A stretch of DNA of 49,625 nucleotides from Rhodospirillales bacterium (GTDB lineage Bacteria > Pseudomonadota > Alphaproteobacteria > Rhodospirillales > Casp-alpha2), in contig JAJFID010000298.1 in the NCBI GenBank assembly GCA_021775325.1, positions 1-49,625 of the forward strand. The letters are read 5' to 3'. A program made the translations under genes and the position numbers. The notes beneath the pieces were generated by a model. It worked only from the letters and a program-made list of their open reading frames with translations, was not told where the DNA came from and did no database searches. Below are positions 25,554-27,574 of the stretch, in pieces. Each line of letters starts with the position of its first letter. The stretch's first letter is position 1.

Positions 25554-27574
<2,021 letters not shown>

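What the first reader, a model, noticed from the sequence alone, without database searches (positions are those of the whole stretch)
27284..27286. dnaK carries a single in-frame TAG exactly at the conserved catalytic-lysine codon
The two minus-strand ORFs 27284..27547 and 25538..27214 are one uninterrupted dnaK frame (27493 down to 25538 = 1956 nt = 652 codons, no frameshift). Codon-by-codon reading across the junction gives ...[47 protein letters not shown]... In Hsp70s this block is invariant FAIKRLIGR. By my manual count the TAG sits at the position of E. coli DnaK Lys70 (Hsc70 Lys71), the lysine known to be required for ATP hydrolysis. A single A-to-T change (AAG to TAG) explains it. The rest of the gene and the flanking hrcA, grpE and dnaJ look intact, so this is not general gene decay. 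Reinitiation at GTG 27214 would lose the first ~93 residues, including the DLGTTNS phosphate loop. The options are a base-call or assembly error, a very recent nonsense mutation (surprising for a gene that is usually essential or near-essential), or stop-codon suppression or read-through.
Basis: partly seen in the sequence, partly recalled or inferred. Interest (0 to 1): 0.7.

Follow-up and report, generated by a model that had tools for sequence, protein, structure and literature searches.

The report
Lone premature stop codon in dnaK
An otherwise intact heat-shock chaperone gene (dnaK) on this metagenome-type contig carries a single A-to-T change that turns a lysine codon into a stop; it is most likely a consensus error or a one-off null allele, not a special decoding event.

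Summary
On the minus strand, 27493..25538 is one 652-codon dnaK frame with a single in-frame TAG at 27286..27284. This is codon 70, aligned with E. coli DnaK Lys70.

The more interesting readings have no support.
- All 117 related dnaK genes I could fetch encode Lys here. In the 17-locus close clade the codon is AAG 14 times and AAA 3 times. None has a stop anywhere in dnaK.
- TAG is a common, genuine terminator in this window. It ends about 16 of 48 genes, and six of these end exactly where the orthologue ends.
- The window has no tRNA and no Rfam hit. There is no unusual RNA structure downstream of the TAG.
- dnaK shows no decay. dN/dS is 0.04, like its neighbours, and the promoter-like motif, Shine-Dalgarno sequence and start codon are intact.
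- All other genes in the 49.6 kb with an orthologue or a Pfam match are complete.
- 168 of the 651 dnaK codons are one step from a stop, so hitting the catalytic lysine is coincidence.

No second assembly of this species is in the collections, and reads are not available, so artefact and real recent null allele cannot be separated. My estimates are:
- artefact or unrepresentative variant: about 0.55
- real recent nonsense allele: about 0.35
- suppression or read-through: 0.04 or less

This is ordinary and of low interest.

The parts
27284..27286 (-). In-frame TAG at dnaK codon 70. Relatives have AAG or AAA (Lys) here. The difference is a single A-to-T change on the coding strand, at window position 27286.
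25538..27493 (-). Complete dnaK reading frame of 652 codons, including the internal TAG and the terminal TAA.
   Evidence: a single tblastn HSP over residues 1-653 of the 654-aa orthologue, with one stop
27284..27493 (-). The 5' piece: 69 codons plus the TAG. It encodes the DLGTTNS phosphate-binding loop and matches HSP70 profile positions 1-65.
25538..27283 (-). The 3' piece: 581 codons, HSP70 profile positions 67-599. The only listed start is GTG 27214 (codon 94). I saw no Shine-Dalgarno-like sequence in front of it.
27498..27509 (-). Shine-Dalgarno region AAGGAAAGGAAA ahead of the ATG at 27493. The 26 nt before the ATG are identical to those of the 92%-identical orthologue locus L099.
27658..27690 (-). 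Promoter-like motif TTGC (27690..27687) ... C.TATATAACGC (27669..27658). It is invariant in the five clade members aligned and resembles alphaproteobacterial sigma-32 promoters. That assignment is an inference and was not tested.
24351..25484 (-). dnaJ, intact, immediately downstream of dnaK.
27764..28558 (-). grpE, intact, upstream of dnaK. A hairpin followed by T's at 27713..27697 lies after it.
28616..29653 (-). hrcA, intact. The start at 29653 is placed by alignment to the orthologue.

Best explanation
The TAG is an isolated single-nucleotide lesion (AAG to TAG) in a dnaK gene that is otherwise fully functional-looking. It is not decoded in any special way. Most likely the base in the deposited contig does not represent the organism's working gene. 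It would then be either a consensus or assembly error, or a minority or dead-end variant that the assembler happened to follow.

Shown here:
- the lesion is unique to this contig
- it is the only defect in the gene and in the contig
- TAG acts as a normal terminator in this window

Inferred: that the base is an artefact or an unrepresentative variant, rather than the fixed state of a living lineage.
For: - Position 70 is Lys in all 59 closest DnaK proteins and in all 100 fetched dnaK loci. A degenerate pattern with codon 70 left free found 17 close-clade metagenome loci: 14 AAG, 3 AAA, no stop.
- dnaK has evolved under strong purifying selection up to the present. Against L099, omega is 0.04 overall and 0.006 for codons 1-69, the same range as dnaJ, hrcA, bipA and pfkB.
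- Apart from the stop, only 2 residues deviate at columns conserved at 90% or more. Both lie in the variable C-terminal part, and this count is low among the 60 aligned sequences.
- The promoter-like motif, Shine-Dalgarno sequence and start codon are conserved.
- All 17 other orthologous genes are full length without stops or frameshifts. The remaining genes that hit a Pfam family do so without truncation.
- dnaJ, hrcA and grpE show no excess of odd residues at conserved columns.
- Errors fall on genes without regard to their importance. A real null allele of a near-universal, usually essential chaperone should be strongly counter-selected (established knowledge). A lone lesion in such a gene therefore favours error.
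- In the related genomes scanned, each isolate gave only one dnaK locus among the 80 best, so a back-up copy is not expected.
Against: - The contig looks clean: there are no frameshifts and no other odd substitutions in 49.6 kb. The per-base error rate is therefore low, which lowers the prior for an error at any one site.
- No reads, coverage figures or second assembly of this species are available. The nearest GrpE is only 72% identical, and the window's own genome cannot be reached. The artefact reading therefore rests on priors, not on direct evidence.
- dnaK null mutants are viable under some conditions in some bacteria, for example E. coli at low temperature (own knowledge). A real allele is therefore possible.
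Confidence: 0.55

Rival explanations
1. This is a real and very recent nonsense mutation, and the sampled population or clone carries a dnaK null allele. Translation stops after 69 residues. The downstream part, and by polarity possibly dnaJ, is not expressed or only poorly expressed. The cell survives because DnaK is dispensable in its niche, or because of compensating changes elsewhere, such as in rpoH or a second Hsp70.
For: - The contig is otherwise error-free by every test, so a base-call error is not especially likely.
- The change is a single transversion from the commonest ancestral codon, AAG.
- The absence of any further decay fits an event too recent to have accumulated other changes.
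Against: - None of the 100 related loci has a stop in dnaK.
- DnaK is essential or nearly so in studied alphaproteobacteria such as Caulobacter (own knowledge; the paper library was unavailable).
- An allele this harmful should not reach majority frequency in a free-living population.
- grpE and dnaJ, the partners of DnaK, remain under full constraint.
- Related genomes show no second canonical dnaK.
Confidence: 0.35
2. The TAG is read through, so full-length DnaK is made. The agent would be a suppressor tRNA with a CUA anticodon, a pyrrolysine-type system, or near-cognate tRNAs (Lys, Gln or Tyr).
For: - The gene is otherwise perfect.
- Pyrrolysine and near-cognate Lys insertion would both put a lysine-like residue at a lysine position. 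This is an idea only; no result supports it.
Against: - TAG terminates about 16 of 48 genes in the window. Six of them (lppC-like, ham1, eamA, adh, dapB, pfkB) end exactly where the orthologue ends. Genomes with efficient amber suppression avoid TAG as a terminator (established knowledge of Pyl-decoding organisms).
- No relative has TAG at this codon, so the stop is not a conserved recoding site.
- The window has no tRNA and no Rfam family.
- The RNA downstream is no more structured than shuffled sequence, z = -0.05.
- No Pfam-annotated gene in the window belongs to a pyl-type family.
- Spontaneous near-cognate read-through in bacteria is of the order of 1e-4 to 1e-3 (own knowledge), and Gln or Tyr at K70 would give an ATPase-dead protein.
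Confidence: 0.04
3. dnaK is a split gene. Its 69-residue and C-terminal products would be made separately, by reinitiation after the TAG or at GTG 27214, and would reassemble into a working chaperone.
For: None beyond the two ORFs being called separately.
Against: - The first listed start after the TAG is GTG at codon 94, and I saw no Shine-Dalgarno-like sequence in front of it.
- Residues 71-93 would be lost, and K70 would be absent from both pieces.
- No relative is split.
Confidence: 0.01

Closest known systems
Canonical bacterial DnaK (Hsp70) in an hrcA-grpE / dnaK-dnaJ neighbourhood of Rhodospirillales-type alphaproteobacteria
   Same: - 90-94% protein identity to DnaK of uncultured Rhodospirillales.
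- Full HSP70 profile coverage except one position.
- Same gene order as locus L099, from MAG GCA_018673095.1.
- Conserved promoter-like motif and 5' leader.
   Different: Codon 70 is TAG instead of AAG or AAA. As written, the gene encodes only 69 residues.
Premature stop codons in draft or metagenome-assembled genomes (consensus errors or low-frequency deleterious variants)
   Same: A single substitution in an otherwise intact, strongly constrained gene, unique to one assembly and absent from every relative.
   Different: Reads could not be inspected. The rest of the contig gives no independent sign of a raised error rate.
Pyrrolysine (UAG) decoding in methylamine methyltransferase genes
   Same: An in-frame TAG within a conserved enzyme-coding frame.
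   Different: - In Pyl systems the TAG is conserved among orthologues, and the organisms tend to avoid TAG as a terminator (own knowledge).
- Here the TAG is unique to one contig, and TAG is a common terminator.
- Pyl systems are not known in this lineage (own knowledge).
Hsc70 K71 and DnaK K70 catalytic-lysine mutants
   Same: The affected position is this lysine. PDB chains of bovine Hsc70 ATPase-fragment entries 1kax, 1kay and 1kaz appear among the hits. From my own knowledge, these are the K71 mutant structures.
   Different: Those are missense mutants that bind ATP but do not hydrolyse it. Here the codon is a stop, so the identity of the residue is irrelevant to the outcome.

Membership tests
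DnaK / Hsp70 (Pfam PF00012) | Full-length match to the HSP70 profile, including the N-terminal phosphate-binding loop | tested here: met
   profile positions 1-65 and 67-599 are matched by the two pieces in one frame. DLGTTNS is present.
DnaK / Hsp70 (Pfam PF00012) | Uninterrupted reading frame with the catalytic Lys (E. coli K70) | tested here: not met
   TAG at codon 70. All 100 comparison loci have Lys.
Decaying pseudogene | Several lesions (stops, frameshifts), relaxed constraint, loss of expression signals | tested here: not met
   There is one lesion only. Omega is 0.04. There are 2 odd residues at conserved columns, a low count among the 60 aligned sequences. The promoter-like motif, Shine-Dalgarno sequence and ATG are conserved. 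A pseudogene only a few generations old cannot be excluded.
Pyrrolysine or amber-suppressor decoding | The in-frame TAG is conserved at the same codon in orthologues | tested here: not met
   0 of 117 relatives have a stop at this codon. The close-clade codons are AAG x14 and AAA x3.
Pyrrolysine or amber-suppressor decoding | TAG is avoided as a terminator in the genome | tested here: not met
   about 16 of 48 window genes end in TAG. Six of them end exactly at the orthologue's C-terminus.
Pyrrolysine or amber-suppressor decoding | tRNA with a CUA anticodon (pylT or a suppressor) and pylSBCD in the genome | not testable with these tools
   There is no tRNA in the window and no Rfam hit. The rest of the genome could not be reached.
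Programmed stop-codon read-through | A stimulatory RNA structure or conserved context downstream of the stop | tested here: not met
   MFE -37.4 kcal/mol against a shuffle mean of -37.2, z = -0.05.
Sequencing or assembly artefact | Reads disagree with the consensus base, or coverage is low or strand-biased at the site | not testable with these tools
   No reads or coverage are available. No second assembly of this species is in the collections (the nearest GrpE is 72% identical).

The most novel reading that the evidence does not exclude
The TAG is real and is decoded in this organism, by a suppressor tRNA or a pyrrolysine-like system encoded elsewhere in the genome. This would place lysine or a lysine analogue at the catalytic position of an essential chaperone, in an alphaproteobacterium where no such system is known.
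Probability: 0.03. Interest if true: 0.85.

Novelty: already known. Interest (0 to 1): 0.12.

Why it matters
If this is an artefact or a stray variant, it matters only as a curation point. The deposited contig splits dnaK into 69-aa and 558-aa products, and these have already entered public protein collections.

If it is a real fixed allele, it would be a natural DnaK-null alphaproteobacterium. That would be a modest curiosity for chaperone essentiality. Only the read-through reading would be important, and the evidence here speaks against it.

Tried and rejected
- **Independent assemblies of the same population.** Exact-protein look-ups of DnaJ, GrpE and the 558-aa DnaK piece returned nothing; the window's own contig is not in that index. 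The genome scan did not return the window's own genome, and its best hit was 85% identical. The GrpE search found no protein above 72% identity. The two 90% clusters contain only diverged relatives, all with Lys.
- **Genetic-code reassignment of TAG.** Rejected because TAG terminates many genes at orthologous ends.
- **Noisy long-read assembly.** Not supported, because about 48 genes contain no frameshift. The change does convert TTAA to TTTA at a homopolymer boundary, which fits a signal-segmentation error. This is only a weak hint.
- **mutS defect.** A defect in mutS could cause a mutator background, but mutS (5009-7774) is complete across all five domains.
- **Significance of hitting K70.** Rejected, because 168 of 651 codons are one step from a stop.
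- **Literature look-ups** on K70A and on dnaK essentiality failed for technical reasons. Those statements rest on my own knowledge.

Full report
**1. The observation**

Reading the minus strand from the ATG at 27493 to the TAA at 25540..25538 gives 652 codons in one frame. There is exactly one internal stop, TAG at 27286..27284, in the context ...[18 protein letters not shown].... Pfam HSP70 matches profile positions 1-65 in the 69-residue piece and 67-599 in the 581-residue piece, so a single profile position is missing and there is no frameshift.

The stop is codon 70. By my residue count there is no gap relative to E. coli DnaK before that point; the E. coli sequence comes from my own knowledge. 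An ungapped phmmer alignment to human mortalin puts the stop opposite the Lys of ATKRLIGRR. The GTG at 27214 is codon 94.

The window is an entire 49,625-bp NCBI contig. The 69-aa and 558-aa products called on it are already in the public protein collection. The TAG is therefore in the deposited record.

**2. Where the contig comes from**

The closest DnaK proteins are 94%, 92% and 90% identical. They come from uncultured marine-type Rhodospirillales. The window is colinear with locus L099, from MAG GCA_018673095.1, across about 25 kb at roughly 75% nucleotide identity. The shared order is lppC-like, hemN, ham1, rph, hydrolase, eamA, adh, hrcA, grpE, dnaK, dnaJ, dapB, nth, bactofilin, EI24, pfkB, bipA.

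**3. Is the stop shared by relatives?**

No.
- All 59 closest proteins have Lys at position 70.
- All 100 dnaK loci fetched from genomes and metagenomes have Lys there, and none has an in-frame stop anywhere in dnaK.
- A degenerate DNA pattern specific to the close clade (...TL[F/Y][22 protein letters not shown]), with codon 70 left free, found 17 metagenome loci: 14 AAG, 3 AAA, no TAG.

The window's codon therefore differs from the commonest ancestral codon by one A-to-T change.

**4. Is the gene decaying?**

No.
- Against L099, dnaK has omega of about 0.04. Codons 1-69 give 0.006 and codons 71-384 give 0.03. dS is about 1.1. This is the same range as dnaJ (0.03), hrcA (0.04), bipA (0.04), pfkB (0.05) and nth (0.06).
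- Apart from the stop, the window protein departs from columns conserved at 90% or more at only two places, S534 and S575. Both lie in the variable C-terminal part. This count is low among the 60 aligned sequences.
- Upstream, a TTGC ... C.TATATAACGC motif is invariant in five clade members. The 26 nt before the ATG, including the Shine-Dalgarno sequence, are identical to L099.

**5. Is the contig error-prone or pseudogene-rich?**

No.
- All 17 other genes with an orthologue in L099 align end to end in one HSP, with no stop.
- The other window genes that hit a Pfam family do so without truncation. They include murJ, glnD, mutS, a macro-domain gene, carbonic anhydrase, ppa, an MFS transporter, a PAS histidine kinase, a LysR-type regulator, catalase, rsmI, yraN, a BON-domain gene, a transglutaminase-like gene, comM, a HIT gene, hisE/F/A/H/B and hslV.
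- dnaJ, hrcA and grpE show no excess of odd residues at conserved columns.

**6. Is TAG a normal stop here?**

Yes. About 16 of 48 genes in the window end in TAG. For six of them (lppC-like, ham1, eamA, adh, dapB, pfkB), the TAG follows directly after the last residue aligned to the orthologue's C-terminus. This excludes code reassignment and argues against an efficient amber suppressor.

The window also has no tRNA and no Rfam family at gathering score. The 131 nt around and after the TAG fold no better than shuffles, z = -0.05.

**7. Is the position meaningful?**

183 of the 5,859 possible single substitutions in dnaK are nonsense, and they are spread over 168 codons. A stop at any early codon abolishes the protein, so the catalytic role of K70 has no bearing on the consequence. 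The coincidence is unremarkable.

**8. What could not be done**

- The species is represented only by this contig in the collections. The nearest GrpE is 72% identical. Exact look-ups of window proteins are not indexed. The genome scan did not return the window's own genome.
- I therefore could not test for a second dnaK, a tRNA-CUA or pyl genes in the same genome, and I could not inspect reads.
- In related genomes, each isolate gave only one dnaK locus among the 80 best hits. By inference, a back-up copy is not expected.
- The paper library did not respond. Statements on K70/K71 catalysis, dnaK essentiality and read-through rates rest on my own knowledge.

**9. Verdict**

This is a lone AAG-to-TAG substitution in an otherwise pristine, strongly constrained dnaK on a clean contig.

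- **Best reading (about 0.55):** the base does not represent the organism's working gene. It is a consensus error or an unrepresentative variant taken up by the assembler. Errors strike genes without regard to importance, whereas a null allele of this chaperone should be strongly selected against.
- **Main rival (about 0.35):** a real, very recent null allele. The general cleanliness of the contig favours this reading.
- **Suppression or read-through (about 0.04)** and **a split gene (about 0.01)** are disfavoured by the tests above.

The finding is ordinary. Its practical value is as a flag for curating the record.

Noticed in passing
window 16843-22213: About 5.4 kb is present here but absent from the colinear locus L099. 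It carries a PAS histidine kinase (16923-19163, minus strand), a YgaP-like membrane protein (19145-19471, minus), a LysR-type regulator (19524-20498, minus) and a divergently transcribed catalase (20591-22072, plus). This looks like an oxidative-stress module gained or lost between close relatives.
   Followed up: partly
window 27658-27690 (minus strand): The motif TTGC ... C.TATATAACGC upstream of dnaK is invariant in five clade members although the surrounding sequence is diverged. The 26 nt before the dnaK ATG are identical to L099 even though dS is about 1.1 in the gene. It is probably a sigma-32-type promoter plus a constrained leader.
   Followed up: partly
protein P0001 (ENA, contig of 7778 bp): This 939-aa DnaK homologue repeats an internal block of nearly 290 residues (from ...[19 protein letters not shown]... 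to ...DDDRKAAE) twice in tandem. It is probably an assembly duplication rather than a real gene.
   Followed up: no
window 22916-23419 and the 128-nt dnaJ-dapB gap (24223-24350): Small gene-content differences exist among close relatives. DUF2244 lies between dapB and nth in the window and in the contig of P0002, but not in L098-L100. An acetyltransferase lies between dnaJ and dapB in the contig of P0002, but not in the window.
   Followed up: no
window 40013-41209 (minus) and 41453-42502 (minus): A 398-aa ORF has no Pfam match. Next to it, an ORF has only a weak 2OG-Fe(II) oxygenase match, and its open frame overlaps the start of comM (42281) by about 220 nt. The true start and function of both are unclear.
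   Followed up: no
window 43888-49623: The histidine operon reads hisB, DUF2628, hisH, hisA, hisF, hisE, then a HIT-family gene, all on the minus strand. Divergent hslV and the start of hslU lie at the contig end. All appear intact.
   Followed up: partly
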